Shown here in pieces: positions 34,783 through 54,706 of a stretch of DNA of 64,000 nt (positions are counted from its first letter, which is position 1; each line of letters starts with the position of its first letter). Source of the stretch: a bacterium. Its GTDB lineage: Bacteria > Desulfobacterota > JADFVX01. The stretch spans positions 10,976-74,975 of the forward strand of contig JAVVFD010000001.1 in the NCBI GenBank assembly GCA_032250935.1, read 5' to 3'. The notes under the pieces are model-generated. The model searched no databases, was not told the DNA's origin, and saw nothing but the letters and a program-made list of their open reading frames with translations. The translations under genes were made by a program, and so were the position numbers.

Positions 34783-34803
34783 TTTTGCAAGAACTCTTGA
34801 ATA

Positions 34804-35862
34804 ATGAACTTCACTACTAAAACCTGCTCGACCGGGCTTTTTTTGTTCTTTTTTATAGCAGCCCTTTTTTTTCAGGGCTGCGCCGGCTCTCTAAAGACAG
34901 AAGAAATCTTTGTGGTTGAGGCTGACCTTAATTGGCCGCCATTTCCACTTAAGCCCCGGATCAAATATATAAGATCCATAGCCATGCCCTCCGATATAGC
35001 CATTAAAGAGGGAAAAGGCTGGCTGGGCAGAGCTTTTGACTATCTAACGGGTGGCAGTTTACTGGAGGGCACGCCCATATCTGCCCCCTACGGTCTTTTT
35101 TTTGATAGTGATAAAAAAACTCTTTATGTTGCAGATAGAGCAAGAAAGGGCATTCATCTCTATGATTTGAGCAAAGGGAAGGCCGAAACCCTTGAGGCTG
35201 TAGCTGGAGAGGTATTTGAAATGCCCGTTGCTGTGGCAGTGTCTGGAGACAGGATTTACGTCTCCGACTCGGGTTTTAAAAAACTGCTTATTCTCGACCT
35301 CGAAGGCAATCTCCTGAAAGAGATTGACCGATGGGAGAGGCCGGGCGGGATAGCGATTAGCAAAGATGAAAAGCGTCTCTATGTTGTAGATGTGCTTGCA
35401 TGCCGGATAAAGGTCTTTGATGCTGAGGGTAACTTCCTTTTTGACTTTGGCAGTAAAGGAGAAAAGGCCGGGGAATTCAACCTTCCGAGTAATATATGGG
35501 TAGATGCCTCTGGAAAGATATATGTAACTGATTCTATGAATTTCAGAGTCCAGATATTTGATGAGTCAGGAAAGCATATTATCAGCATCGGCAAGTTGGG
35601 CGATTCCCCGGGCTACCTGGCAAGGCCGAGAGGCGTGGCTGTAGATAGTGAAGGTCATATCTACATTGTTGATGCTGTTTTTGATAACGTGCAGATATTT
35701 AATCCCGATGGGCAGCTTCTCCTCTTTTTTGGAGGGTCGGGAAGAGGCCCGGGAGAATTTTATCTTCCCAGCGGAATTTTTATAGATGAAAAGGATAGGA
35801 TATATATTTCAGACTCCTACAACAGGAGGATTCAGGTATTTCAGTATTTGAAAGAAGAGTAG
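34804..35862 (+). CDS. NHL-repeat (six-bladed beta-propeller) lipoprotein
   Basis: Lipobox FFQGCAGS and repeated NHL-like units (P.G.AV....IYV.D..N.R.QVFD..G). Confidence 0.7.
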   Translation: MNFTTKTCSTGLFLFFFIAALFFQGCAGSLKTEEIFVVEADLNWPPFPLKPRIKYIRSIAMPSDIAIKEGKGWLGRAFDYLTGGSLLEGTPISAPYGLFFDSDKKTLYVADRARKGIHLYDLSKGKAETLEAVAGEVFEMPVAVAVSGDRIYVSDSGFKKLLILDLEGNLLKEIDRWERPGGIAISKDEKRLYVVDVLACRIKVFDAEGNFLFDFGSKGEKAGEFNLPSNIWVDASGKIYVTDSMNFRVQIFDESGKHIISIGKLGDSPGYLARPRGVAVDSEGHIYIVDAVFDNVQIFNPDGQLLLFFGGSGRGPGEFYLPSGIFIDEKDRIYISDSYNRRIQVFQYLKEE

Positions 35863-35866
35863 GTAA

Positions 35867-36628
35867 ATGAAGAAAAATATTTACATAATAATTGCAGTTT
35901 TATTTATGATGCATGCATCTACCGCTCTGGCCGGTGTTGCAGATACCAAGCATAATCTCTCTTCAGGGAGCTCTTTTACATATAAATCTGCCACCGAAAC
36001 GGAGGTCTGCAAGTTCTGTCATACCCCTCATGCGTCGATTGCCGACACACCCCTTTGGAATCATAAGAATGATGTAACCACCTTTACACGTTTTTCTTCT
36101 GCCACTCTGGTTGTAGATGATAATGCCGCCAATCCTTATGGCTACCTTGATGCTGATCTTTCCGGCGCGTCAAAACTCTGTATGGGCTGTCATGACGGAG
36201 TCACCGCCCTTGGCGCCCTGTCGCAGGTCACTATAAGTGATGTGAGTCCGTCTAATTACCTTACCGCTACGGATCTGAGGAACAAGCATCCCGTATCTTT
36301 TGAATATAAGTCTGGCGGCAGTAACCTATGGGGTGTTCTGGATGGAGGCGTGAAAGCTGGCAAGTATGGGTTGCCTAATAATACCGTCAATAACACTATC
36401 AACAATCCTTTTGTTTCTGAAAAGTGGAGGCGGGAAGGAGAAAGGGTGGAGTGTACTGTATGCCACGACCCGCATGAAAATAAGGCAGATGCAGCTGATG
36501 CGGCTTTATTGCCTTTTTGGGTTAGCTCCAGCATTACGGGCTATGATTCTCATGATTCGGTCTGTGTGGCTTGTCACAATCCCTCATTTGGAGAGTACAC
36601 AGCGTTTGGAGAATATAGTAGTCTGTAA
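35867..36628 (+). CDS. Secreted tetrahaem cytochrome c
   Basis: Signal peptide and four CxxCH motifs (CKFCH, CMGCH, CTVCH, CVACH). Confidence 0.75.
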   Translation: MKKNIYIIIAVLFMMHASTALAGVADTKHNLSSGSSFTYKSATETEVCKFCHTPHASIADTPLWNHKNDVTTFTRFSSATLVVDDNAANPYGYLDADLSGASKLCMGCHDGVTALGALSQVTISDVSPSNYLTATDLRNKHPVSFEYKSGGSNLWGVLDGGVKAGKYGLPNNTVNNTINNPFVSEKWRREGERVECTVCHDPHENKADAADAALLPFWVSSSITGYDSHDSVCVACHNPSFGEYTAFGEYSSL

Positions 36629-36673
36629 AATTAAGCAGGTAAAAGGCAATAATGGCAATAGTAAGGTAATGAT

Positions 36674-37786
36674 ATGATAGAAAGCAAAACCATATTTTTT
36701 GCAATATTCTTAGGCCTTGCAGTTCTCTTGGTAGGCCCCGTCGATGCAGCTAAAGTAAAATATAATAATATCCACGGGGCATCCAGCATGGTGACTGCCG
36801 GGTGCAGGGCATGTCACGCCGGCAGCGAGATGAGTAGGAGTGTTTTGAATACCTGTTTTCAATGCCATGGAGATATGCTTGATCTCGATAAGGCAGAAAA
36901 GAAAGGAATTCTGTCGCCCTTTTACAAGGCATCCAAGTCTATGAGTGAAATCAGTATGAAGCGTAAGCTTGAAAAGCCTTATAGGCATCCTATAGGTGAG
37001 GCCAAAGGGGTTCATAATGCGTATGAAGAAATGCCTGAGACCGCCTCTGATATCGAACGACACGTAGAATGCGTAGATTGCCATAGTCCGCACTATATGC
37101 GTGAAGATAGAAAGTTTGCAGGAATTAAGGGAGTAACTAAAACTGGAATAAGCGGCGTATGGGCAAGGACTGAATATGAGGTCTGCTTTAACTGTCATTC
37201 GGACAATTATAACCTCCCTGTTGACCAGACAAATAAGCGTGTGGAGTTTGCCGAGACCAACCCTTCATATCACCCGGTAATAGCGGAAGGTAAAAACAGT
37301 TTCGTGCCAAGTCTCATAAAGCCATATACTGAAAAATATACTAGCGCCGGTGATGTATCGAAAATAAGCTGTAGTGACTGTCATAATAATGATGATAAAA
37401 GAGGGCTTCAGGGGCCTCATGCATCAAATTACCCAGCCATTCTTGCTAGAAATTACTCTATTTCAGATAATGTAGATGAAAGCCCCCAAAGTTATGATCT
37501 TTGTTATGGTTGTCATAAGCGAACCAGCATACTCTCAGATATATCTTTTAAATATCATTCTCTGCACATCAAGGGTGACCTCGTGAAGGGGGTAAGGGGA
37601 ACCAGTTGCTTTACATGTCATGACGCCCATGGCAGCACTGAAAATACACATCTCATAAGGTTTAATAGAGATGTCGTTTTCAGCAATCCATCAACAATGG
37701 AGCTACTCTTTAAAGATAAAGGAGAGTTCAAAGGAGAGTGTTCGCTCCTTTGCCACGGTGTTAACCACAACCCCAAAAGTTATTGA
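36674..37786 (+). CDS. Secreted multihaem cytochrome c (7 CxxCH plus 1 CxxxCH)
   Basis: Signal peptide. Haem motifs are CRACH, CFQCH, CVDCH, CFNCH, CSDCH, CYGCH, CFTCH and CSLLCH. Confidence 0.75.
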   Translation: MIESKTIFFAIFLGLAVLLVGPVDAAKVKYNNIHGASSMVTAGCRACHAGSEMSRSVLNTCFQCHGDMLDLDKAEKKGILSPFYKASKSMSEISMKRKLEKPYRHPIGEAKGVHNAYEEMPETASDIERHVECVDCHSPHYMREDRKFAGIKGVTKTGISGVWARTEYEVCFNCHSDNYNLPVDQTNKRVEFAETNPSYHPVIAEGKNSFVPSLIKPYTEKYTSAGDVSKISCSDCHNNDDKRGLQGPHASNYPAILARNYSISDNVDESPQSYDLCYGCHKRTSILSDISFKYHSLHIKGDLVKGVRGTSCFTCHDAHGSTENTHLIRFNRDVVFSNPSTMELLFKDKGEFKGECSLLCHGVNHNPKSY

Positions 37787-37935: not shown

Positions 37936-39147
37936 ATGCCGATTTATAAATGCAAGCTCGGTGATGAAACCGGGAAGATCGTTGAGAAGGAGATAGAGGC
38001 AAATGATGCAAACGGCCTTAAGGAAAGGCTTGAAAGGGAAGGCTGGCTCTTATTTGGTCTTGTTGAAAAGCGTAGTCTCCTCCCCTCGGCAATAAGGAGG
38101 CCTGGTGCCGGAAGAGTCAAAATATCCAACTTTATAATCTTTAACCAGGAACTTGTAGCCCTTCTCAAGGCAGGTCTTCCTCTGCTCGCATCCATCGAAA
38201 CTCTTGCAGGAAAGGAAGAAAATAGATACTTTAAAGAGCTTCTCGGCAGGGTTGCCGACGAGGTTAGAAAGGGCGCGCCCTTATCCGAGGCGCTGGAGGG
38301 AGCTCCAAGGGTTTTTAATAAACTATACATATCGTCAATTAAGGCCGGTGAAAAGAGCGGTGAGCTTGGCACGAATATATTAAGATATATATCCTATGCA
38401 AAAAGAGTTGAAGAGCTTAAGAAAAAGTTTGTAAGCGCCTCTGTCTATCCGCTTATACTTCTGTCTGTGGCGGCTATTGTTATAATGTTTCTGATCCTTT
38501 ATGTAGTGCCCTCCTTCAGCCAGGTCTTTATAGATTCCGGTACGGAGCTACCGGTTCCAACACGTATCCTGATCGGCCTGACAGATTTCATTACAAGTAA
38601 TATCTTAATAATAGCTATCCTTGTTTTTATATCTTATCCATCTTTTCTTGTGGCGAAAAAAAGGCCGGAGGTCGGCAGCTGGTTAGATATAATGAAAACA
38701 AAAATTCCCTGGATTGGCGAAACACTTAAAAAATATGCCATTGCGAAATTCTGCAGAACCCTGTCGACTCTTTTAAAGAGCGGAGAGCCGCTCGTTACGG
38801 CCATATCTTTATCTGCCGGCACACTCGACAATAACTATCTGGAGGAAAATATTCTGCTAGCCTCGGGAAAGGTTAAGGAGGGTGGAAGCCTTGCTGATGC
38901 ACTGGAAGAAACGGGGCTTGTTCCATCTACGGCTCTAAAGATGATTATGGTAGGGGAATCAAGTGGCGCACTTGATGAAATGTTTGAAAATGTTGCCGAA
39001 CTCTTTGAAGAAGAGGTAGATAGGAGGCTGAATTTAGTCACTACAGCTATTGAACCTGTTCTTATGTTGACCATGGGGCTTGTAATTGCCTTTATTGTTG
39101 TCGCCATGTATCTACCGATTTTTAATCTTGCCGGGGCCGTAAGGTAA
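37936..39147 (+). CDS. gspF: Type II secretion / type IV pilus platform protein (GspF/PilC family)
   Basis: Two repeated T2SSF domains with three transmembrane segments, of typical GspF size. Confidence 0.8.
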   Translation: MPIYKCKLGDETGKIVEKEIEANDANGLKERLEREGWLLFGLVEKRSLLPSAIRRPGAGRVKISNFIIFNQELVALLKAGLPLLASIETLAGKEENRYFKELLGRVADEVRKGAPLSEALEGAPRVFNKLYISSIKAGEKSGELGTNILRYISYAKRVEELKKKFVSASVYPLILLSVAAIVIMFLILYVVPSFSQVFIDSGTELPVPTRILIGLTDFITSNILIIAILVFISYPSFLVAKKRPEVGSWLDIMKTKIPWIGETLKKYAIAKFCRTLSTLLKSGEPLVTAISLSAGTLDNNYLEENILLASGKVKEGGSLADALEETGLVPSTALKMIMVGESSGALDEMFENVAELFEEEVDRRLNLVTTAIEPVLMLTMGLVIAFIVVAMYLPIFNLAGAVR

Positions 39148-39319
39148 TCCGTTTATTTGCGCAAACTTACATAATAGCTTGGATATAAGGCATTATTTTA
39201 TTGACAGCGGCTTGATGCGATTGTTTAATTGTGCACAGATATTATTAAGCCTCTTTTGAGAGGCAAGCTTGAAATCAGGCGCAGGAACTCCTGATTATAG
39301 ATACTATTTAAACAGGCCT

Positions 39320-41038
39320 ATGAAAAAAGAAAAACAAGAAAATATCGGCGAAATCCTAATTCGACTCGGGTTTTTGAAACCAAATGATCTTGAGGCAGCG
39401 CTCGCATCTGGAGTCAAAGATGATAAGGGCCTTGCAGAAGTATTCCTTGAAGAAGGGTATATAAATGAAGAAGAGCTGGCAAAGGCCCTTGCCGATCAAT
39501 ATGAGTATGAATATCTAAGCCTTAAAGAGTTAGAGCCTTCTGCTGAGATGCTGGAAGAGGTGCCTCTTGATTTAATGCTAAGGTACAACTTCATTCCCTT
39601 TGAAAAGCGAGACGCTTCCCTTGTCGTAGTCCTATCTGACCCCACCGATATAATAGTTATTGATGAGCTTGAACTGCTTTTGGATCGCCCGATTATCGTG
39701 GCGCTTGCATCGAAAAGTGGAATAGAAAAGGCGATAAAGATCTTTGAGCGCTCCGGAAGGCTCGTTAGTGATATATCCGCCGGCATGGAGCTTCAGCTTG
39801 TAAAAGAAACAGACGAGGGCGAAGAGGTACTATCGGTAGAGAAGATCTCTGAAGAGATGAGCCCCGTGGTGAAACTGGTCGATTCAACCATCCTTGACGC
39901 ACTTGGTAAAAGAGCGAGTGATATTCATATCGAGTGTACAGGAAAAGGGCTTGAGATCAAGTATCGGATAGATGGCGTCCTCTATCCGGTGGCAAAGCCC
40001 TTTGATGCCAAATTTCAAGGCCCTATTATTTCGAGAATCAAGATTATGTCCGAACTGGATATCTCGGAAAAAAGGATCCCGCAAGATGGCAGGTTCAAAC
40101 TGAGAATAAAGAGCAGGGCTATAGACTTCAGGGTTTCCATAATACCTACTATATTCGGCGAAGATGCCGTAATAAGGGTGCTTGATAAAGAAATGATTAG
40201 TGCAGAGATGGAAAAACTTTCTCTCGAATCCATAGGCTTTCATAGTGAAGAGCTTGTTCGCCTGAGAAGAATGATAAGGGAGCCCTATGGGATGGTGCTC
40301 GTAACCGGGCCGACAGGAAGCGGGAAAACAACAACATTATATGCCGCGCTGACCGAGATTAATTCATCAGAAGAAAAGGTAATAACTATTGAAGATCCGG
40401 TAGAATATAACCTTGACGGAATAGTACAGATTCCCGTAAATGAAAAAAAGGGACTTACCTTTGCCAGGGGCCTGAGATCAATACTTCGCCATGATCCCGA
40501 TAAAATCATGGTTGGTGAGATAAGGGATGAAGAAACGGCGCAGATAGCAATTCAGTCCGCCTTGACAGGGCATCTTGTTTTTACTACGGTACACGCGAAT
40601 AACGCCTTTGATGTTATAGGGCGGTTTCTTCATATGAACCTTGAGCCTTACAACTTCGTATCATCACTGAACTGCATCCTCGCACAAAGGCTGGTTAGAA
40701 AGATCTGCGGAAACTGCAAGCACAAGGTCAGTATGACAAAGGAAGATCTTGAGGATTCCCACCTGCCCTATGATGAATATAAAGACCATCCCTTTTACGA
40801 AGGTAAGGGATGTGTGGATTGTAACTACACCGGATACAAGGGACGGACTGCAATTGTGGAACTTCTTGACCTTACCGAGGAGATCAGGGAGTTGATCCTG
40901 GGAAGACACTCTACGGCTAAATTAAGACGAGCCGCAGCCGAATCAGGGACGGTCTTTTTGAGGGAAGATGCCATTAAAAAGGTATTAAATGGCGAAACGA
41001 CATTGAAGGAAATAAACAGGGTAACCTTCGTGGATTAA
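39320..41038 (+). CDS. gspE: Type II secretion / type IV pilus assembly ATPase (GspE/PilB family) with an N-terminal GspE_N/MshEN-like domain
   Basis: Walker A GPTGSGKTT, Asp box, His box, and the tetracysteine motif CGNCK...CVDCN. The ATG at 39320 is preferred over the listed TTG at 39269. Confidence 0.85.
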   Translation: MKKEKQENIGEILIRLGFLKPNDLEAALASGVKDDKGLAEVFLEEGYINEEELAKALADQYEYEYLSLKELEPSAEMLEEVPLDLMLRYNFIPFEKRDASLVVVLSDPTDIIVIDELELLLDRPIIVALASKSGIEKAIKIFERSGRLVSDISAGMELQLVKETDEGEEVLSVEKISEEMSPVVKLVDSTILDALGKRASDIHIECTGKGLEIKYRIDGVLYPVAKPFDAKFQGPIISRIKIMSELDISEKRIPQDGRFKLRIKSRAIDFRVSIIPTIFGEDAVIRVLDKEMISAEMEKLSLESIGFHSEELVRLRRMIREPYGMVLVTGPTGSGKTTTLYAALTEINSSEEKVITIEDPVEYNLDGIVQIPVNEKKGLTFARGLRSILRHDPDKIMVGEIRDEETAQIAIQSALTGHLVFTTVHANNAFDVIGRFLHMNLEPYNFVSSLNCILAQRLVRKICGNCKHKVSMTKEDLEDSHLPYDEYKDHPFYEGKGCVDCNYTGYKGRTAIVELLDLTEEIRELILGRHSTAKLRRAAAESGTVFLREDAIKKVLNGETTLKEINRVTFVD

Positions 41039-41042
41039 TAAT

Positions 41043-41960
41043 ATGATGTTTAATTCAAAAATAAAAAGAGGTCTCAGTATATCTTCATCGCAGCTTTCAT
41101 GGGTTGAGATAGATAGCTCAAGCAGTAGTAAGCCCGATATAAAGATCTCGGCTAATGAAAGTCTGCCTGAAGGCCTTGTCAAGCCTTTTTTTGCAAAGAG
41201 AAACATAGATGACAGAGAAGCCTTTAAGTTTGCAATTGAAAAGCTGATTCCAGGTGGGCATATGACCGGGGATATTGCTTTATCTATCCCGGATCATATT
41301 GCAAAGATAACATCCTTAAAATTTGATGATCTGCCGGATAGCAGGCAGGAAGTTGAGCAGCTTATTTTGTGGCGAATGAAAAAAACAGTGCCCCTTCCGG
41401 TAGCGGATATCAAGCTTGATTTTATCAGTTACAAGGCAAACGATGGTACCGTTGATGTTGCGGCTTCTGTTGCTTCAAGGCTTGTCTTGAGAGAATATGA
41501 AGATGTCTTGAAGGAAATGGGGCTAAGACCAAGGCTTGTAGATATTGCATCTATCAATACCCTTAGAGCTTTTGAGACTGCAATCCCCGAATCTTCCTTG
41601 TTTATAGAGCTGTCGGAAGACTCCTTAGGTATGGCAATACTGGATGAAGGGAGGCTCGGTTTTTTTAGAAGCAAGGAGGTCGAGGGCAGTTCAGATAAAG
41701 TGCTATCGGATAAAGTAAAAAGGGAGATTGTTTCAACGCTGGCATATTTGAGGACAACCTTTCCTGAAAAGGAAATAGCAACAATCTGCTTTCATTCCAC
41801 TATCCCTGGGTTAGAAGAGATTATAAAAGGCCTTGAAGCAGGCTTTGAAGGAAGTATTGTTAATCTATCCGTTTCAGATTATATAAGCGAAGCAGAGGCA
41901 GGAAGTGACAATATTGATGAGCATCTGGCCCCGGCTATTGGAGGAGCTCTTAGGCTATAA
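41043..41960 (+). CDS. pilM: PilM/GspL-like actin-fold assembly protein
   Basis: Comparable in size and position to PilM, with a C-terminal LAPAIGGALRL. First of a pilMNO-like run. Confidence 0.55.
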   Translation: MMFNSKIKRGLSISSSQLSWVEIDSSSSSKPDIKISANESLPEGLVKPFFAKRNIDDREAFKFAIEKLIPGGHMTGDIALSIPDHIAKITSLKFDDLPDSRQEVEQLILWRMKKTVPLPVADIKLDFISYKANDGTVDVAASVASRLVLREYEDVLKEMGLRPRLVDIASINTLRAFETAIPESSLFIELSEDSLGMAILDEGRLGFFRSKEVEGSSDKVLSDKVKREIVSTLAYLRTTFPEKEIATICFHSTIPGLEEIIKGLEAGFEGSIVNLSVSDYISEAEAGSDNIDEHLAPAIGGALRL

Positions 41961-41963
41961 ATA

Positions 41964-42530
41964 ATGAAGGGATTTAATCTATCTACATATTCTTATACCG
42001 ACAGGAATACGGCCTTTGGCGCATACCTCGTCACTGTCATTATAGTTATTGCGTTGACCGCATATAACGTGAGTTCATATGTAGAATCTATGAAAAATAA
42101 AGAGGTCATGTTTAATAAGGTTGATTCTATTAGCAAGGAAGTAAGGCTATTGGGAGTAAAATTAGAGCAGGGGAAAACAGGTTTATCAAAGACAGACAGC
42201 GTAAAAAAAGCAGAAATAATGGCAAAAGAGATTAACAATATAAATGCCGTTATAAAGAAAAAGAGCTTTTCCTGGAGCGAACTATTCTACTCTATTGAAA
42301 AGGCTACGCCAAAAGGGGTTTCAATTGAGGCTATTAAGCCGAATTACAATACAAGGAAGGTGACTATTAATGGAGTCGCCCTGAATCTTGGGGACATTAC
42401 AAACTTTGTAGATAACCTAAAGGATAGGCCATATATAAAAAATGGTTTTCTCGTAAGCGAGCAAGAATCGCTAAACAAGCAAAAGAAAATGGTTTTATCA
42501 TTTGTAATAGCTGCAGACGGGGATTTTTAG
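41964..42530 (+). CDS. pilN: PilN-like bitopic inner-membrane protein
   Basis: Single N-terminal transmembrane helix, a coiled coil, then a periplasmic domain. Confidence 0.5.
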   Translation: MKGFNLSTYSYTDRNTAFGAYLVTVIIVIALTAYNVSSYVESMKNKEVMFNKVDSISKEVRLLGVKLEQGKTGLSKTDSVKKAEIMAKEINNINAVIKKKSFSWSELFYSIEKATPKGVSIEAIKPNYNTRKVTINGVALNLGDITNFVDNLKDRPYIKNGFLVSEQESLNKQKKMVLSFVIAADGDF

Positions 42531-42532
42531 CA

Positions 42533-43093
42533 TTGTTTGAGAATATGAAAATGTATATTTCCGAGGGGCGGCGTTTTTATCTGGCAGCCGGAGCGATATT
42601 TACCTTCAATCTTATCTTTTTGATCGCCCTTGTCCTGCCGAATAATGCTGATGTTGACGCACTTAGAAATAACTATTCCTCGCTCAGGAAGGACCGCGCG
42701 AGCAAGATTGAAGAGTTAAAAGTGATTGCAGATTCAGGCGTCGCTCTTAAGACTATGAATAGCGATATAGATATGTTCCTTAACAGGATGCCGGAAAAGG
42801 TGACCATGTCGGGTATTGTCAGGGAATTTCATAGACTGGCAAAAAAATCTGCCCTCAGTATAAGTTCGGCGAAATATTCACCTCCTGTAAGAGAAGGTGA
42901 ATATTTAATGAGAAATGATATCTCTTTTCCCGTATCGGGACTCTACAAGAATATCCGCAAGTTCATATATAATATTGAAAAAATGCCATATCTTATGACC
43001 ATTGATGATCCGGCACTTACATCCAGGGGAGATCAAACTGTTTCGGTGACAATCAGAATATCATTATATCTGAGGGTGGAAGCGGATGAATAA
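42533..43093 (+). CDS. pilO: PilO/GspM-like bitopic inner-membrane protein
   Basis: One N-terminal transmembrane helix with a periplasmic domain, downstream of the PilN-like gene. Start uncertain (TTG at 42533, or ATG at 42545 or 42551). Confidence 0.45.
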   Translation: MFENMKMYISEGRRFYLAAGAIFTFNLIFLIALVLPNNADVDALRNNYSSLRKDRASKIEELKVIADSGVALKTMNSDIDMFLNRMPEKVTMSGIVREFHRLAKKSALSISSAKYSPPVREGEYLMRNDISFPVSGLYKNIRKFIYNIEKMPYLMTIDDPALTSRGDQTVSVTIRISLYLRVEADE

Positions 43094-43865
43094 GAAAAGT
43101 ATAATCCTTGGCGTGCTCTTACTGTTTTTTGCAGTGTTGACATATAATAATTTCAAGGACTCCCGACCTCGGAGGATAGAAAAACTTACCTATGTAACCG
43201 GCGCGGACGTGATATCTGTAAAAAAAGATATTTCAGCCCCCCCCTTGATAAACAAGAATTTATTTCCACCTGAGAGAGAGCCTTTTAGAATCGCAAACAA
43301 AAATATATTCAGGCCGGTCGGGTTTAAAGTTAAAACAAAGAAAATTGAACCCCCTATCGCCGCGCCCGCCAAAGAGTTGCTCCTGTCACCGGGAGCCATA
43401 GCCCTGGAAATTGGAGCTAGCGCCGAGGTCAATGTTGAGAATGCAGGGGCCGCTCTTAATATTCTGATTTCACCACAAGATGTAGCTTCAGGAAGCGGGA
43501 CCTCCTCTCCCCTTACATTTAGATGCGAAAAGGAAGGCAGCGCAAGTGCGGCCATATCTGACGGTAAAAGGTCAGCATCTCTACAGGTAGACTGTCGCAT
43601 GCGGCCCGAGGAAAGGAAACTTGCCGACTTTATATTTCTCGGTTTTCTGGCTCAGGAAAAAGAAAAGACCATATTTCTTTCAAGAATTAGAGACAATGAG
43701 ATATTTGTCGTTAAAAAAGGTGACGTAATTATAAAAAAGGGTGCTACAATTACGCAAAACTACGTTGTTAAAGGGATTGCTGACGATAAAATAATCATAT
43801 CTTCTGCCGATGGCACGGATATTATGGAAATAAATCTCACGGAAAATGAACCTCTCAGAAAATAA
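43086..43865 (+). CDS. Putative secretin-associated protein (PilP/GspC-like)
   Basis: An N-terminal transmembrane helix is followed by Pro/Ala-rich linkers and a C-terminal beta-rich domain, directly upstream of the secretin gene. Confidence 0.3.
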   Translation: MNKKSIILGVLLLFFAVLTYNNFKDSRPRRIEKLTYVTGADVISVKKDISAPPLINKNLFPPEREPFRIANKNIFRPVGFKVKTKKIEPPIAAPAKELLLSPGAIALEIGASAEVNVENAGAALNILISPQDVASGSGTSSPLTFRCEKEGSASAAISDGKRSASLQVDCRMRPEERKLADFIFLGFLAQEKEKTIFLSRIRDNEIFVVKKGDVIIKKGATITQNYVVKGIADDKIIISSADGTDIMEINLTENEPLRK

Positions 43866-43881: not shown

Positions 43882-46188
43882 ATGTTTTTAAACCTCACTT
43901 ATATACCAAGGCTGACCATAATATTGGTGATCTGTCTGTCTGTTGCCGGTTGTGCCAGCACTAAGCTTGTAAGAGACGGGGATATGCTTGCATCACAGGG
44001 AAGATGGGATGAGGCTCTTGATCAATATGATAAGGCGCTTGAAACATCACCGGATAATACGGGATTCCGCATAAAAGTAATAGAAACTAAATATAAAGCT
44101 TCACTTGCACACATAAAAAAAGGTGAAGCTCTTTTGCAAAAAGAAGATTATGATCGAGCAATTTTAGAGTTCCAGATTGCAACTGCCTTAAATCCCTCCA
44201 TCAAAAGGAGCGAATATCTTGCGATGGAGGCGAAGAAAAGAAAGGATGCGGCCTATTATTACAAAGCCGGTCTGGATTTTCTGAAACAGAAAAAAACAGT
44301 TGAAGCCAAGGCAGCGCTTAAAAGAGCTCTGTCGTTAAATGCTAATCTTGAAGGGGCGGCAGAAGAGCTTGAACGTTTAGAGCAGGATAAAAAAACAATA
44401 TTGGGCGGCTATGAGCTGAATCTTAAGAGTGAAAAACCGATAACACTTAAATTTAAAGACACTCCTGTAAAGGATATCTTTGATATTATTTCCAAGCTGT
44501 CAGGCATAAACTTTATATTTGATGAAGGCGTGAAAAAACAAAAGGCCTCCCTATACATTGAACAAGCCACATTCGGCCAGGCCCTGGACCTGGTTCTTAT
44601 GACGAATCAACTTTTCCAGAAAGTAGTCAATGAAAATACTATTATAATCATCCCCGACACCAAGTCAAAAAGACAGCAATATGAGGATCTTATGATACAC
44701 ACCTTTTCCTTGTCCAACCTGGAGGCGAAAAAGGCTGTAAATCTTTTAAGGACCCTGCTCAAGATAAAAAGCATATATGTTAACGAGGAATTAAATACTA
44801 TAGTTGTGCGCGATACCCCCGAGGTTGTCTCGCTCGCGGAAAAGTTGCTAAGGGCGAACGACCTCACCGATGCCGAAGTGATGCTTGAAGTTGAAATACT
44901 GGAAGTAGGGAATACGGATACGGAAAAGTTGGGACTGGATCTTCAGCCTGATGAAATAACAGCCGGTTTGCGAGATGTGGGCAGCAAGGAACTTACCTAT
45001 GGTTTTCTCAAAGGTGCATCCAGTGCAGATATACTTTTCACAATACCAGACATCGCCATAGATTTACAAAAACAGTCTGGCAATGTTACGACCCTTGCAA
45101 ATCCAAAAATTCGAGTGGCCAACAATAAAAAAGCTAAAATACATATAGGCGAAAGAATTCCTATAATAACAGTCACCACCAGTGGAGCCGACAATGTTAC
45201 AGAAAATGTTCAGTATGTTGATGTCGGAGTAAAACTTAATGTTGAGCCGGTTATTCATCTTGATAATGAAGTTACCTTGAAAATCACTCTTGAAATCAGT
45301 ACGCTGGGAGAGCAGGTCGCAGCTTCAAAAAGTACGGTTTTTAGAATAGGCACCAGGAATGCGGAAACGGAGCTCAGGCTTCATGATGGTGAAACCCAGA
45401 TAATGGGCGGATTAATTAAGGATGAAGAAAGAGAGACTACGGTAAAGGTGCCCTTCCTTGGTGATATCCCGATTTTGGGAAGGCTTTTCTCCTCCGTCTC
45501 AGATAGCGCCAATAAGTCAGAAATTCTTTTATCTATTACGCCCCATATAGTCAGGACTAGAGAGGTCGCCGATGAGGGGGTAACCAGCATATGGTCCGGC
45601 AGGGAACAGGAATTTTCCGACAGATCTCCTTTTGAATCATTTGAGGAGCAGGGACCGGATGTGGATCTTCCTGAACCTGTGACTCAAATCTTTGGCGGTG
45701 TGGGCCGTGCCGCAGCGGCAGAAGAGGCGCAAGCAGAGGAGGGGGAGCCAGAGGTAATCCCTCCCGCTTCCGGAGATTCGGCGGTTATTTCAATAGCCGG
45801 GCCGGCTTCAGCAGCAGTAGATGATGAAATCGATTTAAGCATCAACATAAGCAGCAGTCAAAAGGTTGTAAGTGTTCCATTTTATGTGAGGTATGACCCA
45901 GTTTTTCTCGAATTCACCAAGGCAACGGAAGGGACGTTTATGAAGATGGACGGCAAGTCTGCCACCTTCATGACATCTAATGATGCCACAAAGGGCCGTC
46001 TGATAGTGGGCAATTCAAGGCTGGGAGACAGAGACGGTATTAGCGGGCAGGGAGATCTGATGTCGGTAAGGTTCAAGGCAAGGAAGAACGGCAGCACGAA
46101 TGTTTATCTTGAAAACTACAGGGTAACCGATGGCAGCGGCAAGGTCGTACCTGCAATAGTTTCAGGAAAGGATCTGGAAATTAAATAA
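43882..46188 (+). CDS. gspD: Secretin (GspD/PilQ family) with an N-terminal TPR region and a C-terminal cohesin-like domain
   Basis: Lipobox LSVAGCAS. The secretin core contains VPFLGDIPILGRLF. The C-terminal roughly 140 aa match the cohesin beta-sandwich pattern. ATG at 43882 has an AAGGAG ribosome-binding site. Confidence 0.75.
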   Translation: MFLNLTYIPRLTIILVICLSVAGCASTKLVRDGDMLASQGRWDEALDQYDKALETSPDNTGFRIKVIETKYKASLAHIKKGEALLQKEDYDRAILEFQIATALNPSIKRSEYLAMEAKKRKDAAYYYKAGLDFLKQKKTVEAKAALKRALSLNANLEGAAEELERLEQDKKTILGGYELNLKSEKPITLKFKDTPVKDIFDIISKLSGINFIFDEGVKKQKASLYIEQATFGQALDLVLMTNQLFQKVVNENTIIIIPDTKSKRQQYEDLMIHTFSLSNLEAKKAVNLLRTLLKIKSIYVNEELNTIVVRDTPEVVSLAEKLLRANDLTDAEVMLEVEILEVGNTDTEKLGLDLQPDEITAGLRDVGSKELTYGFLKGASSADILFTIPDIAIDLQKQSGNVTTLANPKIRVANNKKAKIHIGERIPIITVTTSGADNVTENVQYVDVGVKLNVEPVIHLDNEVTLKITLEISTLGEQVAASKSTVFRIGTRNAETELRLHDGETQIMGGLIKDEERETTVKVPFLGDIPILGRLFSSVSDSANKSEILLSITPHIVRTREVADEGVTSIWSGREQEFSDRSPFESFEEQGPDVDLPEPVTQIFGGVGRAAAAEEAQAEEGEPEVIPPASGDSAVISIAGPASAAVDDEIDLSINISSSQKVVSVPFYVRYDPVFLEFTKATEGTFMKMDGKSATFMTSNDATKGRLIVGNSRLGDRDGISGQGDLMSVRFKARKNGSTNVYLENYRVTDGSGKVVPAIVSGKDLEIK

Positions 46189-46233: not shown

Positions 46234-46725
46234 ATGAGAGTAAAAAAAAATCTTTTAACTGAAAGAGGTCTGACTCTCATAGAGCTTGTCATTGTTATAG
46301 CCATTATAGGGGTCCTTGCCTCAGCTGTCGCCCCGCTAGCCAATATCAGTAAAAAGCGGGCAAAAGAGTTTGAACTCAAGAGGAGTTTGAGGATTTTAAG
46401 ATCAGCTATTGATAGGTATAAAAATGCCTATGACAATAAGAATATTGATAATGAAATCGGACGTTCAGGCTATCCCGAATCATTCCTGGAGTTGATCGAA
46501 GGCGTCAAGGATGCAAAAGACCCCGAGGGGCGAATGATTTATTTTTTAAGGCGCGTGCCGCGTGATCCTATGAACATGAATGAGTTTATCTCCCCCGAGG
46601 AGACCTGGGAGATCAGGGCCCATGATAATGAGCCCGACGATTTTTCTGGGGGAGAGGATATATTTGACATTCGCTCTTCAAGTGACGATATAGCCCTTGA
46701 CGGAACGGCTTATAAAGATTGGTGA
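46234..46725 (+). CDS. gspG: GspG-like major pseudopilin (prepilin-type N-terminus)
   Basis: Leader MRVKKNLLTERG|LTLIELVIVIAIIGVLA, and a GspG-like C-terminus ending DIALDGTAYKDW. Confidence 0.7.
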   Translation: MRVKKNLLTERGLTLIELVIVIAIIGVLASAVAPLANISKKRAKEFELKRSLRILRSAIDRYKNAYDNKNIDNEIGRSGYPESFLELIEGVKDAKDPEGRMIYFLRRVPRDPMNMNEFISPEETWEIRAHDNEPDDFSGGEDIFDIRSSSDDIALDGTAYKDW

Positions 46726-46728
46726 TAT

Positions 46729-47163
46729 ATGGTTCTAAAGGAAATGCGAATGACGGACATCGAAAAGAAATCCAGCCTGCTGCGCAATAAGAATAATGAA
46801 AAGGGGTTTACCCTTATCGAGCTTATGATAGTGATGACTATCATCGCTATACTATTGACAATTGCCCAGCCTACGTACAGGGAATCAACAATCAAGGCAA
46901 GAGAGGCGGTTCTCATGGAGGACCTGTTTGCGCTGAGAGATGTAATAGATCAATTTTATCTGGATAAGAGCAGATATCCCGATTCTCTTGAAGAGCTTAC
47001 TGACGGAGGGTATATACGTTCACTTCCAAGGGACCCCTTTACACGTTCATCCGATACATGGCAGCTTATCCCTCCTCCGGAAGGTTTTGAAGGCAGTGTC
47101 TATGATGTCCACAGCGGCAGCGACCTGATCGCGCTTGATGGCAGCGCCTATAACGAATGGTAA
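46729..47163 (+). CDS. Second GspG-like pseudopilin paralogue
   Basis: KG|FTLIELMIVMTIIAIL, and a C-terminus ending DLIALDGSAYNEW. The leader is unusually long (26 aa from the listed ATG). Confidence 0.65.
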   Translation: MVLKEMRMTDIEKKSSLLRNKNNEKGFTLIELMIVMTIIAILLTIAQPTYRESTIKAREAVLMEDLFALRDVIDQFYLDKSRYPDSLEELTDGGYIRSLPRDPFTRSSDTWQLIPPPEGFEGSVYDVHSGSDLIALDGSAYNEW

Positions 47164-47216
47164 CAGCTAAGCTTTAAAGAGCGGACTTTTTTTATTTGGC
47201 TGCCGGAGATAGTAAA

Positions 47217-47693
47217 ATGTATAAGTCATTTAGCGATAAAGGATTTACTTACATTTCACTTTTATTTGCAATTGTGGTTATAGGCGTCTCGCTTTCAGCG
47301 ATGGGAAGGCAGTGGAGTCTTATCGACAGGGCAGACAAGGAAGAGGAACTGCTTTTCAGGGGGGACCAGTTTGTCAGAGCGATAGACGCATACTATAAAA
47401 GCGCCCATGGACAGGCCAAGCTTTATCCAAAAACCTTCGATCATCTTTTAAAAGATCCTCGCAGCCTTGCCCCCAAAAGATATCTGAGAAAAATATATAA
47501 AGACCCGTTAACTGGCAAAGCGGACTGGGTCCCGATTATAGAACAAAAATCGGGACGTATAAAGGGAGTGAAGAGCCGAAGCGATAATCCTCCCTTAAAG
47601 GAAGATGGCTTTCCCGAAAGATACAGACATTTTAAAGGGAAGAACAGCTACAGTGAATGGGAATTTGTCCACAAGCCCGGGATGACCTGGTAG
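47217..47693 (+). CDS. Third prepilin-type (minor pseudopilin-like) protein
   Basis: MYKSFSDKG|FTYISLLFAIVVIGVSLSA. ATG at 47217 has a GGAGAT ribosome-binding site. Confidence 0.5.
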   Translation: MYKSFSDKGFTYISLLFAIVVIGVSLSAMGRQWSLIDRADKEEELLFRGDQFVRAIDAYYKSAHGQAKLYPKTFDHLLKDPRSLAPKRYLRKIYKDPLTGKADWVPIIEQKSGRIKGVKSRSDNPPLKEDGFPERYRHFKGKNSYSEWEFVHKPGMTW

Positions 47694-47724: not shown

Positions 47725-49245
47725 ATGAATGTTAGGAATATGGTAATAAAAAGCCTCATCACCAAGATCATTATATCTACAACCTTGCTTTTATTCATTG
47801 CGATAGGTATATCGTGGTGGATACATATGAGGATTTACGAGGCTCAACTGATGGACGAGGTGAGAGAAAGGCTTGAAACGGTGCTCGATACCGCAGAAAG
47901 CAGTATTCTGAAATCAATGAGGATAGGGAAAACCGATGATACTCAGAATATCATGGAGCTTGTCAATTCTCATATGAAGGAGGAGTCTGTCGTCAGAATT
48001 TTTCATCCCGGGGGGATAATCATAAGATCTACAAATTTAAGGGAGACCGGCAAAAGAATTACGAGAGAAAAACTGGCGGCGCTAGGTGCAGGGGAAAGGG
48101 AATTCCTGTACCGCTCAAATAGCGGCAGGAGCCTCACTATGGCAAAACCTATTAAGAATATGCGCGAGTGTTATCTTTGCCATGGAGAGGGGGATAAAAA
48201 TATAGGCATACTTGAGGCAGAAATTTCCCTGGATGAGATGGATAATAAGGTGGGCGAGGCGAGACGCCTTTCCAATCTATCCGCCATTACTATCAGCCTT
48301 CTCCTTTCATTTTTCATATTTCTACTTCTTTTCTGGATAGTAATTAAACCGATTTCTAAATTGAACCGAAAAATGGCGCTTGCTGAAAAGGGGGATCTTA
48401 CCGTCAGGAGCGGACTTGTAAAGGGCGATGAACTAGGCAAGCTCGGCAGGAGCTTTGATTCGATGATTGAAAAACTTCAGGAAGCAAGGGCGCAGCTGGA
48501 GAAATATCATTATCAGCAGCTAATAAGGGCGGACAGGCTGGCATCAGTCGGCGAGCTTGCATCAGGCATCGCCCATGAGATAAAAAATCCACTTGCAGGC
48601 ATAGCCGGGGCCGTGCAGATATTTGCCCGGGAATTTAAAGAGGATGAAAAAAAGAGCGTAATATTAAAAGAAATACTTCAGCAGATAGGACGGCTGGACA
48701 AGTCGGTAAAAGACTTGTTAAACTATGCTTCTCCCTCTATGTCGGAACTCGCAATGGGAGATCTGAATCAAATCGTTGAAAAGGCGCTTTTCTTTGTAAT
48801 TCAGCAGCCTAATGCGAGAGAGATAGAGTTTGTAAAGGAGCTGGATACCTCGGTGCCCCAAATCCTGGTGGATGAAAAACAGATTCAGCAGGTATTGCTG
48901 AATCTGTTTTTAAATGCCTTAAACGCCATGTCCGGCGAAGGTATGATGCGGATTTCAACCTTTAAGGATGGTGATGACTCTCTTGCAGTAGAGGTTGAAG
49001 ATAACGGCGCAGGTATTTCGGAAGCGGATATGGCCAAACTTTTTATCCCATTTTATACATCAAGAGAGGACGGAACAGGTTTGGGTCTGCCGATCACCAA
49101 AAGGATTGTAGAGCAGCACGGCGGTAATATTTCCATACGCAGCATTGTCGGGAAAGGAACCTGCATAAAAATTACATTACCCATAAAAGGGGCCAATAAG
49201 GAGACACGTATTAAAGATGAAAAAGTCCAAGATACTGGTAGTTGA
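47725..49245 (+). CDS. Sensor histidine kinase (PilS-like) whose periplasmic domain contains a CxxCH haem motif
   Basis: Transmembrane helix, a periplasmic domain containing CYLCH, a second transmembrane helix, HAMP, the HisKA H-box (IAHEIKNPLAGI) and HATPase_c. I believe a single periplasmic CxxCH motif also marks the Tll0287-like (DUF3365) haem-c sensor domains. Confidence 0.8.
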   Translation: MNVRNMVIKSLITKIIISTTLLLFIAIGISWWIHMRIYEAQLMDEVRERLETVLDTAESSILKSMRIGKTDDTQNIMELVNSHMKEESVVRIFHPGGIIIRSTNLRETGKRITREKLAALGAGEREFLYRSNSGRSLTMAKPIKNMRECYLCHGEGDKNIGILEAEISLDEMDNKVGEARRLSNLSAITISLLLSFFIFLLLFWIVIKPISKLNRKMALAEKGDLTVRSGLVKGDELGKLGRSFDSMIEKLQEARAQLEKYHYQQLIRADRLASVGELASGIAHEIKNPLAGIAGAVQIFAREFKEDEKKSVILKEILQQIGRLDKSVKDLLNYASPSMSELAMGDLNQIVEKALFFVIQQPNAREIEFVKELDTSVPQILVDEKQIQQVLLNLFLNALNAMSGEGMMRISTFKDGDDSLAVEVEDNGAGISEADMAKLFIPFYTSREDGTGLGLPITKRIVEQHGGNISIRSIVGKGTCIKITLPIKGANKETRIKDEKVQDTGS

Positions 49246-51906: not shown

Positions 51907-51907
51907 T

Positions 51908-54587: not shown

Positions 54588-54706
54588 GATTTCCTCCCTT
54601 TGCAAATGCTTACAAGTAAAAGATAGCATAGATGATTAAAGAGTCAATAGTAGAAATAAACATTGTGGAAATAAGTTTCGTTTATAATATAAGCATGTGA
54701 AATTGC

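What the first reader, a model, noticed from the sequence alone, without database searches (positions are those of the whole stretch)
43882..46188. Secretin with an unusual tripartite architecture: TPR N-terminus, secretin core, C-terminal cohesin-like domain
The N-terminal roughly 150 aa after the lipobox are TPR-like, which is normally the job of a separate pilotin such as PilF/Tgl. The C-terminal roughly 140 aa after the secretin core fit the cohesin beta-sandwich signature (...VPFYVRYDPVFLEF...GDLMSVRFKARKNGSTNVYLENYRV...). On the gated pore, a cohesin module would be a docking site on the cell surface, for example for a dockerin-bearing substrate or filament. I see no dockerin motif elsewhere in the window.
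Basis: partly seen in the sequence, partly recalled or inferred. Interest (0 to 1): 0.5.

Follow-up and report, generated by a model that had tools for sequence, protein, structure and literature searches.

The report
Lipoprotein secretin carrying TPR and cohesin
The gene encodes the outer-membrane pore of a Geobacter-type secretion machine and does have a TPR module at the front and a true cohesin fold at the back, but this layout is the norm for its subfamily, and the cohesin probably sits in the periplasm, not on the cell surface.

Summary
ORF 43882-46188 (768 aa) has five parts:
- a lipobox (Cys24);
- a TPR-like helical domain of about 145 aa;
- N0/STN, Secretin_N and secretin core domains;
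- a disordered linker of about 75 aa;
- a C-terminal cohesin. It scores above Pfam's threshold (E 4.8e-10), the AlphaFold2 model has pLDDT 92, and all 50 best PDB fold matches are cohesins.

The architecture is not unusual for its family. The gene is the pulQ-type "secretin lipoprotein" of the atypical Pul type II secretion cluster of Geobacteraceae, with gene order pulF-E-M-N-O-P-Q plus pseudopilins. Of 86 related secretin ORFs, 66 carry the same cohesin. It looks ancestral, with about two losses. NCBI already names this protein "cohesin domain-containing protein".

The cell-surface docking idea is weak. In all solved secretins only the beta-lip is in the membrane and the C-terminus is periplasmic.

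The window holds no dockerin. In 16 of 49 relatives, a cohesin-X-dockerin-like protein is encoded 5-8 kb downstream.

My best reading is a self-piloting liposecretin whose ring of tethered cohesins docks a periplasmic partner. That function is inferred, not shown.

The finding is solid and moderately interesting: a new member of a known kind, whose cohesin module no paper in the searchable library discusses.

The parts
43882..46188 (+). PulQ-type liposecretin gene (768 aa plus stop)
   Evidence: ORF. AGGAG lies about 8 nt upstream of ATG 43882. 100% identical to NCBI protein P0001. 1116 homologues at E<=1e-10.
43882..43953 (+). Signal peptide with lipobox LSVAGC (residues 1-24)
   Evidence: Read directly from the sequence. 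Cys24 is invariant in 30 aligned homologues. A lipobox was found in 58 of 65 cohesin-bearing relatives.
43954..44385 (+). TPR-like helical domain (residues 25-168)
   Evidence: Pfam TPR_2 E 1e-13, TPR_1 E 1e-11. AF2 predicts paired helices over residues 7-168 with pLDDT about 85-94. Only generic TPR matches in the PDB.
44440..44655 (+). N0 / STN domain (residues 187-258)
   Evidence: Pfam STN E 8.1e-7, 29.2 bits against a cut-off of 28.4. AF2 predicts an alpha/beta domain.
44692..44910 (+). Secretin_N (N1/N3-type ring-building) domain (residues 271-343)
   Evidence: Pfam PF03958, 34.4 bits against a cut-off of 28.2. AF2.
45067..45555 (+). Secretin core, the beta-barrel and gate (residues 396-558)
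   Evidence: Pfam PF00263 E 1.4e-45. Best Foldseek matches of the full model are PilQ 6w6m, ExeD 6i1x, InvG and GspD.
45556..45780 (+). Conserved post-core segment (consensus ..WSG.E...S...PF.SF..) followed by a disordered acidic, Pro/Ala-rich linker (residues 559-633)
   Evidence: S572 and G573 are invariant and P599 nearly so. pLDDT is 28-49. In relatives the stretch from the core-end motif to the cohesin is 69-234 aa, median 115, with 19% Pro and 17% Ala.
45781..46185 (+). Cohesin domain (residues 634-768)
   Evidence: Pfam Cohesin E 4.8e-10, above the gathering score. AF2 pLDDT 92.3. All 50 top PDB fold matches are cohesins. The profile finds cohesin 2xdh at E 4.8e-6.
37936..39147 (+). gspF/pulF platform protein
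   Evidence: T2SSF E 2.5e-56. GspF TIGR02120 E 3.9e-93.
39269..41038 (+). gspE/pulE ATPase with MshEN N-domain
   Evidence: T2SSE E 2e-130 and MshEN E 2.4e-15. c-di-GMP-binding motif NF053729, 39.8 bits against a cut-off of 38.
41043..43093 (+). pilM-, pilN- and pilO-like alignment-complex genes
   Evidence: PilM_2, PilN and PilO Pfam hits.
43086..43865 (+). pulP / PilP-position gene (259 aa, N-terminal TM helix, no family hit)
   Evidence: No Pfam or NCBIfam hit. The position is conserved in relatives. The PulP assignment rests on synteny with the Pelobacter table.
46234..47693 (+). Three pseudopilin genes (46234-46725, 46729-47163, 47196-47693)
   Evidence: N_methyl and weak GspG hits for the first two. 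The third has a prepilin-like KGFTYISLL.. N-terminus. pp1 and pp2 are present in all 60 loci that have enough downstream sequence.
34804..37786 (+). Conserved upstream module: NHL-repeat lipoprotein, 4-haem cytochrome and 7-haem cytochrome (possible cargo or partners; association only)
   Evidence: Pfam. Signal peptides or lipobox and CxxCH counts. Present in 30 of 50 cohesin-bearing loci and 0 of 7 cohesin-less loci that have at least 8 kb of upstream sequence.

Best explanation
**What it is.** The gene encodes the outer-membrane secretin of a Geobacter-type "Pul" atypical type II secretion (type IV filament) machine, that is, a PulQ-type liposecretin.

**Shown here:**
- the domain order lipobox, TPR, N0, Secretin_N, secretin core, disordered linker, cohesin;
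- the cohesin fold;
- the pulF-E-M-N-O-P-Q-pseudopilin operon;
- that this architecture is the conserved, probably ancestral, state of the subfamily.

**Inferred mechanism:**
1. The N-terminal lipid anchor and TPR domain act in cis as a pilotin and outer-membrane tether. The protein would be carried by the Lol pathway and held under the outer membrane without a separate PilF/Tgl/TadD-type lipoprotein.
2. After the barrel, a short conserved segment packs where S-domains normally sit, on the periplasmic outer wall.
3. A flexible Pro/Ala-rich tether then presents one cohesin per subunit. This gives a crown of about 12-15 cohesins around the periplasmic side of the pore.
4. These cohesins act as protein-docking modules for a periplasmic partner. 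Candidates are a dockerin-like protein such as the cohesin-X-dockerin-like protein encoded beside the cluster in Geobacteraceae, or a cargo or accessory protein such as the co-conserved NHL lipoprotein and multihaem cytochrome pair.
For: **Domains and fold:**

**Operon and synteny:**
- Operon content in the window.
- The same order occurs in Geotalea and other relatives.
- It matches the published Pelobacter carbinolicus Pul-1 table: pulF, pulE, pulM, pulN, pulO, pulP, pulQ ("secretin lipoprotein"), pulG, oxpG, ftsE, ftsX (PMC3543383 supplement).
- The Pul system is required for OmpB secretion in G. sulfurreducens (PMC3543383; PMC10599522).

**Conservation:**
- 66 of 86 secretin ORFs in 84 loci have the cohesin.
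- 387 species-level genomes encode a relative.
- On a neighbour-joining tree of the core, the cohesin-less state forms two clades, with two state changes and presence at the root.

**Lipid anchor:** Cys24 is invariant.

**Periplasmic placement:** only the beta-lip and amphipathic helical loop insert in the membrane, and pilotins bind the C-terminal S-domain (PMC6532946).

**Tether:** pLDDT is 28-49 and the segment is rich in Pro and Ala.

**Candidate partner in relatives:** 16 of 49 loci with enough downstream sequence encode a signal-peptide protein with a cohesin, a linker, a middle domain of about 115 aa and a paired Ca-loop module (DxDxDxxGxVDxxDF...DLNxDGxRDYxDDYIFTANYL).
Against: - No binding has been shown, and no dockerin is encoded in the 64-kb window.
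- The dockerin-like module of relatives is below Pfam's Dockerin_1 threshold. The best E is 0.0017, in 6 of 11 members, and it also resembles plain EF-hands. It has no significant hit to a solved dockerin.
- It occurs in only a third of the loci that could show it.
- Two clades lost the cohesin but kept the Pro-rich tail, so the module is dispensable in some lineages.
- The full-length AF2 model has pTM 0.33 and says nothing about where the cohesin sits.
- The periplasmic location is inferred from other secretins, not observed.
- The TPR region shows no specific similarity to known pilotins.
- The link between the cytochrome/NHL module and the cohesin is confounded by phylogeny, and only 7 cohesin-less loci have enough upstream sequence.
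Confidence: 0.5

Rival explanations
1. The cohesin is displayed on the cell surface around the pore and captures a dockerin-bearing secreted substrate or filament outside the cell, like a scaffoldin anchor.
For: - The module is a bona fide cohesin.
- Its closest profile relatives include multi-cohesin, scaffoldin-like surface proteins with type IX secretion sorting tails.
- The tether is long: 69-234 aa from the end of the core to the cohesin.
- Relatives encode a secreted cohesin-X-dockerin-like protein nearby.
Against: - In every solved secretin the polypeptide after the barrel is periplasmic, and only the beta-lip and amphipathic loop enter the membrane (PMC6532946).
- The C-terminus leaves from the outside wall of the barrel, so it cannot pass through the lumen.
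- No route is known for taking a folded C-terminal domain of a secretin across the outer membrane.
- No dockerin is present in the window.
Confidence: 0.12
2. A structural role with no external ligand. The cohesin is used as a plain beta-sandwich that stabilises or spaces the assembly. It could pack against the barrel, the N-terminal TPR domain or the Pro-rich tail of neighbouring subunits. It would then be a functional replacement for the S-domain/pilotin or TsaP-type peripheral ring, or a spacer toward the cell wall.
For: - It occupies the position of the S-domain, which in other secretins contacts the neighbouring subunit and the pilotin.
- TPR domains commonly bind extended peptides (established knowledge). 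The TPR domain and the Pro-rich C-terminal tail co-occur in all members, including cohesin-less ones.
- No dockerin is in the window.
- The module was lost twice without loss of the operon, as expected for an accessory stabiliser.
Against: - The module is separated from the barrel by a long disordered tether that varies widely in length (69-234 aa). This suits a reach-and-capture module better than a fixed structural ring.
- The family motifs shared with dockerin-binding cohesins are retained (alignment).
- AF2 predicts no intramolecular packing, although a monomer model with pTM 0.33 is uninformative.
Confidence: 0.28
3. An inert evolutionary passenger. The cohesin is a domain-shuffling remnant with no present function.
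For: - Two lineages lack it while keeping the rest of the system.
- It is less conserved than the core: 26-33% against about 40% identity to Geobacteraceae homologues.
Against: - It is retained as an intact, confidently folding domain, with invariant Gly and Phe positions, in lineages that have diverged to 35-40% identity.
- Between close relatives it is conserved about as well as the whole protein: 87% against 90% for P0002.
Confidence: 0.05

Closest known systems
[quoted passage not shown] 2006, cited in PMC3543383; PMC10599522)
   Same: - Identical gene order pulF-E-M-N-O-P-Q followed by GspG-like pseudopilins.
- It is a lipoprotein secretin.
- Geobacter, Geotalea, Geomonas and Trichloromonas homologues share the TPR-secretin-cohesin layout at 35-44% best-segment identity.
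- The upstream NHL plus 4-haem plus 7-haem module is also shared.
   Different: - The window comes from a more distant, uncultured lineage. Its best match among the species-representative genomes is 64% identity, and that match lacks the cohesin.
- A histidine kinase and a sigma-54 regulator follow the pseudopilins, where Geobacteraceae have ftsEX.
- No cohesin-X-dockerin-like gene is nearby.
- I could not check directly that the G. sulfurreducens PulQ itself has the cohesin.
HxcQ liposecretin of Pseudomonas aeruginosa (Viarre et al. 2009; cited in PMC12475490)
   Same: The secretin polypeptide itself carries an N-terminal lipobox, which suggests self-piloting to the outer membrane without a separate pilotin.
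   Different: From my own knowledge, not tested here: HxcQ has a simple linker after the lipid anchor, and no TPR domain or C-terminal cohesin. Self-piloting was not tested for the present protein.
TPR lipoprotein pilotins PilF/PilW/Tgl and TadD (RcpA-TadD complex, PMC10499894)
   Same: An outer-membrane lipoprotein made of TPR repeats, associated with a secretin. Here the same two features are fused to the secretin N-terminus.
   Different: The TPR region is fused in cis. It is only about 145 aa long. It has no specific sequence similarity to these families, only to generic and designed TPRs.
Non-cellulosomal cohesins, e.g. Archaeoglobus fulgidus cohesin (PDB 2xdh) and Clostridium perfringens NagJ cohesin (2jh2)
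   Same: These are the best sequence-profile and fold matches. They are single cohesin modules outside any cellulosome, in proteins of unrelated function.
   Different: From my own knowledge, those cohesins have demonstrated or co-encoded dockerin-type partners. Here none is identified in the window. Fusion to a secretin is not represented among solved structures: the cohesin part matches only cohesin entries.
S-domain of GspD/InvG-type secretins
   Same: It has the same position, immediately C-terminal to the barrel. It is a module for recruiting another protein (a pilotin) on the periplasmic outer wall (PMC6532946).
   Different: The S-domain is a short helix-turn-helix packed on the barrel. 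Here there is a 135-aa beta-sandwich on a long disordered tether.

Membership tests
Secretin superfamily (GspD/PilQ/InvG) | C-terminal secretin domain (PF00263) | tested here: met
   E 1.4e-45, 155 bits against a cut-off of 27.5. The best fold matches of the full model are PilQ, ExeD, InvG and GspD.
Secretin superfamily (GspD/PilQ/InvG) | Periplasmic N0 (STN) and ring-building N-domain(s) | tested here: met
   STN 29.2 bits (cut-off 28.4) and Secretin_N 34.4 bits (cut-off 28.2). AF2 predicts alpha/beta domains at residues 187-258 and 271-343.
Secretin superfamily (GspD/PilQ/InvG) | Encoded with an assembly ATPase, a platform protein and (pseudo)pilins | tested here: met
   GspF, GspE, PilM/N/O and three pseudopilins flank the gene on the same strand.
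Secretin superfamily (GspD/PilQ/InvG) | Forms a gated 12-15-mer outer-membrane pore | not testable with these tools
   Only monomer prediction is available.
Canonical GspD (TIGR02517) or PilQ (TIGR02515) equivalogs | Score above the curated NCBIfam cut-off | tested here: not met
   GspD scores 176 bits against a cut-off of 351. PilQ scores 178 bits against a cut-off of 284. It is neither an orthodox GspD nor an orthodox PilQ.
Geobacteraceae Pul (OxpG) atypical T2SS, component PulQ | Gene order pulF-pulE-pulM-pulN-pulO-pulP-pulQ-pulG-oxpG | tested here: met
   The window order matches the Pelobacter Pul-1 table and the Geotalea locus L001.
Geobacteraceae Pul (OxpG) atypical T2SS, component PulQ | The secretin is a lipoprotein | tested here: met
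   Lipobox LSVAGC. The Cys is invariant in 30 homologues.
Geobacteraceae Pul (OxpG) atypical T2SS, component PulQ | Cluster lies beside cell-division genes ftsE and ftsX | tested here: not met
   In the window, a histidine kinase and a sigma-54 regulator follow the pseudopilins. ftsEX follows in Geobacteraceae. This is a context feature rather than a strict definition.
Geobacteraceae Pul (OxpG) atypical T2SS, component PulQ | Needed for secretion of OmpB and for reduction of insoluble Fe(III)/Mn(IV) | not testable with these tools
   Known only from genetics in G. sulfurreducens (PMC3543383, PMC10599522).
Cohesin (PF00963) | Sequence match above the Pfam gathering score | tested here: met
   40.2 bits against a cut-off of 24.1, E 4.8e-10. 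The profile finds solved cohesins.
Cohesin (PF00963) | Nine-stranded jelly-roll beta-sandwich fold | tested here: met
   AF2 pLDDT 92.3. All 50 top Foldseek PDB matches are cohesins, with TM 0.64-0.82 normalised to the target for single-module entries.
Cohesin (PF00963) | A cognate dockerin is encoded by the same organism | tested here: inconclusive
   None in the 64-kb window. A dockerin-like paired Ca-loop module lies near the cluster in 16 of 49 relatives, but it is below the Dockerin_1 threshold. The rest of this genome was not available.
Cohesin (PF00963) | Binds a dockerin, typically in a Ca2+-dependent way | not testable with these tools
   Needs binding assays or complex prediction.
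TPR lipoprotein pilotins (PilF/PilW/Tgl/TadD) | Outer-membrane lipoprotein built of TPR repeats | tested here: met
   Lipobox plus TPR_2 at E 1e-13. Helical repeats with pLDDT about 85-94.
TPR lipoprotein pilotins (PilF/PilW/Tgl/TadD) | Specific homology to a known pilotin family | tested here: not met
   NCBIfam gives no pilotin family. PDB sequence search gives only generic or designed TPR proteins.
TPR lipoprotein pilotins (PilF/PilW/Tgl/TadD) | Required for outer-membrane targeting or assembly of the secretin | not testable with these tools
   Needs genetics and fractionation.

The most novel reading that the evidence does not exclude
The ring of tethered cohesins on PulQ would be the anchoring point of a cellulosome-like cohesin-dockerin network built into a type II secretion machine. 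Dockerin-like proteins, such as the cohesin-X-dockerin-like protein of Geobacteraceae, would plug into the secretin. They would recruit or hand over cargo, for example the co-conserved NHL lipoprotein and multihaem cytochromes or OmpB. That would give this T2SS a modular, address-tag-based substrate or accessory recruitment system linked to extracellular electron transfer.
Probability: 0.15. Interest if true: 0.7.

Novelty: new member of a known kind. Interest (0 to 1): 0.38.

Why it matters
How type II secretion systems recognise folded cargo, and how secretins are targeted and stabilised, are still only partly understood. A secretin family that carries a recognisable protein-docking module (cohesin) and a built-in TPR lipoprotein module offers a concrete handle. 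The isolated cohesin can be used as bait, and both modules can be deleted in genetically tractable Geobacter species. [quoted passage not shown]

For this window, the practical result is a correct annotation. It is a PulQ-type liposecretin of a Pul-type T2SS, with a periplasmic rather than surface reading of the cohesin. The architecture is typical of the family, not exceptional.

Tried and rejected
1. **Dockerin in the window.** Regular expressions for dockerin and EF-hand Ca loops in all six frames found nothing. An HMM built from the dockerin-like module of relatives found nothing in the window either.
2. **Word-indexed searches.** Searches with the cohesin profile (A1) and the dockerin-like profile (A4) returned only short fragments of the same proteins. 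They gave no information on other architectures that carry these modules.
3. **AlphaFold database fold search.** The afdb50 library was meant to confirm the G. sulfurreducens orthologue, but it was not available.
4. **Literature.**
   - Peer et al. 2009 (non-cellulosomal cohesins) is not held.
   - A search for "GSU1778", a locus tag recalled from memory, gave no paper, so I do not rely on that tag.
   - No paper in the library combines cohesin, secretin and pseudopilin, or secretin, "cohesin domain" and "type II secretion".
5. **Full-length AF2.** The domains fold, but pTM is 0.33. No inference on cohesin-TPR or cohesin-barrel contacts is possible.
6. **TPR region against PDB sequences.** Only generic or designed TPRs matched, so membership of a pilotin family is rejected at the sequence level.
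7. **Pseudopilin C-termini.** I considered whether the tails (..DIALDGTAYKDW) could be dockerin-like. They look like the GspG-type C-terminal Ca site (my own knowledge) and were not pursued.
8. **Dockerin-like module against solved structures.** There was no significant hit. The best dockerin match, 3ul4_B, has E 1.3.
Full report

Yes. The window has an ORF on the + strand that ends at 46188. The start at 43882 is preceded by AGGAG about 8 nt upstream. It gives a 768-aa product identical to a deposited NCBI protein (P0001), which NCBI names "cohesin domain-containing protein".

- TPR_2, E 1e-13, three stretches.
- STN, residues 209-258.
- Secretin_N, residues 273-327.
- Secretin, residues 396-558, E 1.4e-45.
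- Cohesin, residues 642-745, E 4.8e-10, 40.2 bits against a gathering cut-off of 24.1.

The N-terminus has a lipobox (LSVAGC), and Cys24 is invariant in 30 aligned homologues.

I modelled residues 615-768 with an alignment of 27 homologues. The model has pLDDT 92.3 and pTM 0.83 and is a beta-sandwich. All 50 best PDB fold matches are cohesins. They are led by the non-cellulosomal cohesin of Archaeoglobus fulgidus (2xdh, E 3.9e-11), followed by Clostridium cohesins, some in complex with dockerins. A sequence profile of the domain also reaches solved cohesins (2xdh, E 4.8e-6).

The full-length model (pLDDT 73.6, pTM 0.33) gives these segments:
- helical repeats, residues 7-168;
- two alpha/beta N-domains, residues 187-258 and 271-343;
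- the barrel, residues 402-558;
- a disordered stretch, residues 569-633 (pLDDT 28-49);
- the cohesin, residues 634-767.

Its best fold matches are PilQ of V. cholerae, ExeD, InvG and GspD. The cohesin part matches only cohesin entries.

**2. What is around it?**

The gene sits in a co-directional cluster:
- gspF;
- gspE, with an MshEN c-di-GMP-type N-domain;
- pilM, pilN and pilO;
- a 259-aa membrane-anchored protein in the PilP position;
- the secretin;
- three pseudopilins;
- a histidine kinase and a sigma-54 response regulator.

Directly upstream of gspF are four more genes: a GT2 glycosyltransferase, an NHL-repeat lipoprotein, a 4-haem cytochrome and a 7-haem cytochrome. The NHL protein and both cytochromes carry export signals.

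**3. Which system is it?**

The same order occurs in Geotalea toluenoxydans and other Desulfuromonadales: NHL, cyt4, cyt7, gspF, gspE, pilMNO, X, secretin with TPR and cohesin, then two pseudopilins. In those genomes ftsE, ftsX, an M23 peptidase and ctpA follow.

[quoted passage not shown] The window's secretin is therefore a PulQ-type liposecretin from a more distant, uncultured lineage. Its close relatives at 62-90% identity show the same local gene order as the window. It does not reach the curated cut-offs for canonical GspD or PilQ.

**4. Is the architecture unusual?**

No.
- Among the 120 best protein clusters (36-90% identity), most carry PF00963 together with TPR and Secretin.
- A scan of one genome per species found 387 genomes with a relative.
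- In the 84 loci I held, 66 of 86 secretin ORFs have the cohesin. These include cultured Geobacter, Geotalea, Geomonas, Geomobilimonas and Geomesophilobacter.
- The cohesin-less members end in a Pro-rich tail of 55-107 aa. In cohesin-bearing members the stretch from the end of the core to the cohesin is 69-234 aa (median 115), with 19% Pro and 17% Ala.
- On a neighbour-joining tree of the core, the cohesin-less state forms two clades. One is sister to the window's lineage. Parsimony needs two changes, with presence at the root.

The module is therefore old and retained, but dispensable in some lineages.

The cohesin belongs to a very large family. The profile hits 19,800 cluster representatives at E<=0.001. 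The best summed scores belong to multi-cohesin, scaffoldin-like proteins, several with type IX secretion sorting tails.

**5. Where is the cohesin, and what might it do?**

Structures of secretins argue against this. Only the beta-lip and amphipathic helical loop enter the outer membrane, and the rest is periplasmic. That includes the C-terminal S-domain, to which inner-leaflet lipoprotein pilotins bind (PMC6532946).

Here a short conserved segment follows the barrel (WSG...PF.SF; S572 and G573 invariant). A disordered tether and the cohesin come next. The simplest reading is a crown of cohesins, one per subunit, on flexible tethers on the periplasmic side of the pore.

The N-terminal lipid anchor and TPR domain resemble an in-cis version of TPR lipoprotein pilotins, or of a self-piloting liposecretin such as HxcQ. 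This is an inference, because the TPR region matches only generic TPRs.

**6. Is there a partner?**

No dockerin-like motif exists in the window.

In 16 of 49 loci with enough downstream sequence, a protein of about 440-550 aa with a signal peptide is encoded 5-8 kb downstream of the secretin on the same strand. It has:
- an N-terminal cohesin (Pfam E 8e-7 to 1e-3 in the five members scanned);
- a Pro/Thr linker;
- a conserved middle domain of about 115 aa;
- a C-terminal pair of Ca-loop-like segments (for example DIDLDKSGKVDDNDFKIFL...DLDKDGRRNHIDDYIFTANFLV).

This looks like a dockerin, but the evidence is weak. Dockerin_1 is hit below threshold in 6 of 11 members (best E 0.0017), alongside EF-hand models. 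No solved dockerin is matched significantly. It is a candidate ligand for PulQ's cohesin in Geobacteraceae, not a demonstrated one, and it is absent here.

A second association concerns the NHL, 4-haem and 7-haem module. It is present in 30 of 50 cohesin-bearing loci and in 0 of 7 cohesin-less loci that have at least 8 kb of upstream sequence. The numbers are small and phylogenetically confounded.

**7. Verdict**

The domain calls are right. "Unusual" and "cell surface" are not supported.
- The best explanation is a PulQ-type self-piloting liposecretin whose tethered cohesins dock a periplasmic partner. The identity and architecture are shown. The docking function and the location are inferred.
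- The main rival is a purely structural role for the beta-sandwich.
- Novelty: a new member of a known kind. The architecture is already present in many annotated genomes. No paper in the searchable library discusses a cohesin on a secretin, so its role is open and experimentally accessible in Geobacter.

Noticed in passing
window 33852-37786 (+): A conserved module lies directly upstream of gspF: a GT2 glycosyltransferase, an NHL-repeat beta-propeller lipoprotein, a 4-haem cytochrome and a 7-haem cytochrome with an MtrC/MtrF-type domain. The NHL protein and both cytochromes carry export signals. The NHL, 4-haem and 7-haem trio recurs upstream of the Pul cluster in 30 of 50 cohesin-bearing loci and in none of 7 cohesin-less loci with enough upstream sequence. 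They may be cargo or partners of this T2SS.
   Followed up: partly
L001 18616-19959 and 15 other loci (e.g. L030 19259-20614, L016 18289-19845, L015 18808-20364): In Geobacteraceae, a protein of about 440-550 aa with a signal peptide is encoded 5-8 kb downstream of pulQ, after ftsE-ftsX-M23-ctpA. It has an N-terminal cohesin, a Pro/Thr linker, a conserved middle domain of about 115 aa and a C-terminal dockerin-like pair of Ca loops. Dockerin_1 is hit only below threshold. It is absent from this window.
   Followed up: partly
window 39269-41038 (+): The GspE/PilB-type ATPase has an MshEN N-domain and passes the NCBIfam c-di-GMP-binding motif model (39.8 bits against a cut-off of 38). This suggests that the machine is controlled by c-di-GMP.
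   Followed up: no
window 46234-47693 (+): There are three pseudopilin genes. The first two end in a shared motif..D(I/L)IALDG(T/S)AY(K/N)(D/E)W, which looks like a GspG-type C-terminal Ca site. The third (TTG start, KGFTYISLL..) hits no family model and lacks Glu at position 5 of the mature N-terminus.
   Followed up: no
window 47725-50590 (+): A HAMP histidine kinase and a sigma-54-dependent response regulator (PilS/PilR-like) directly follow the pseudopilins. The same holds in close relatives (L084, L085). Geobacteraceae have ftsEX at this position.
   Followed up: partly
loci L004, L044 and a 14-member clade (e.g. L018, L021, L033): Cohesin-less members of the same secretin subfamily keep the TPR N-terminus and end in a proline-rich tail of 55-107 aa (runs such as PPPPPPSPPGFPPPPPPP). 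The tail itself may have a function, for example as a TPR ligand or a periplasmic spacer.
   Followed up: partly
window 43086-43865 (+): The PilP-position protein (259 aa) has an N-terminal TM helix. Judged by eye, its C-terminus resembles a PilP/GspC-type beta domain. It also has an Ala/Ser/Gly-rich insert of about 80 aa (roughly residues 95-175) with two Cys. No Pfam or NCBIfam family matches.
   Followed up: no
window 50605-54629 (-): A four-gene cluster on the opposite strand encodes a NiFe-hydrogenase large subunit, an Oxidored_q6-type small subunit, an FAD/NAD-binding iron-sulfur subunit and a further ORF. In relatives that fourth gene is a multi-ferredoxin-domain protein. The cluster resembles a soluble, sulfhydrogenase-type hydrogenase and is conserved next to the Pul cluster in close relatives.
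   Followed up: no
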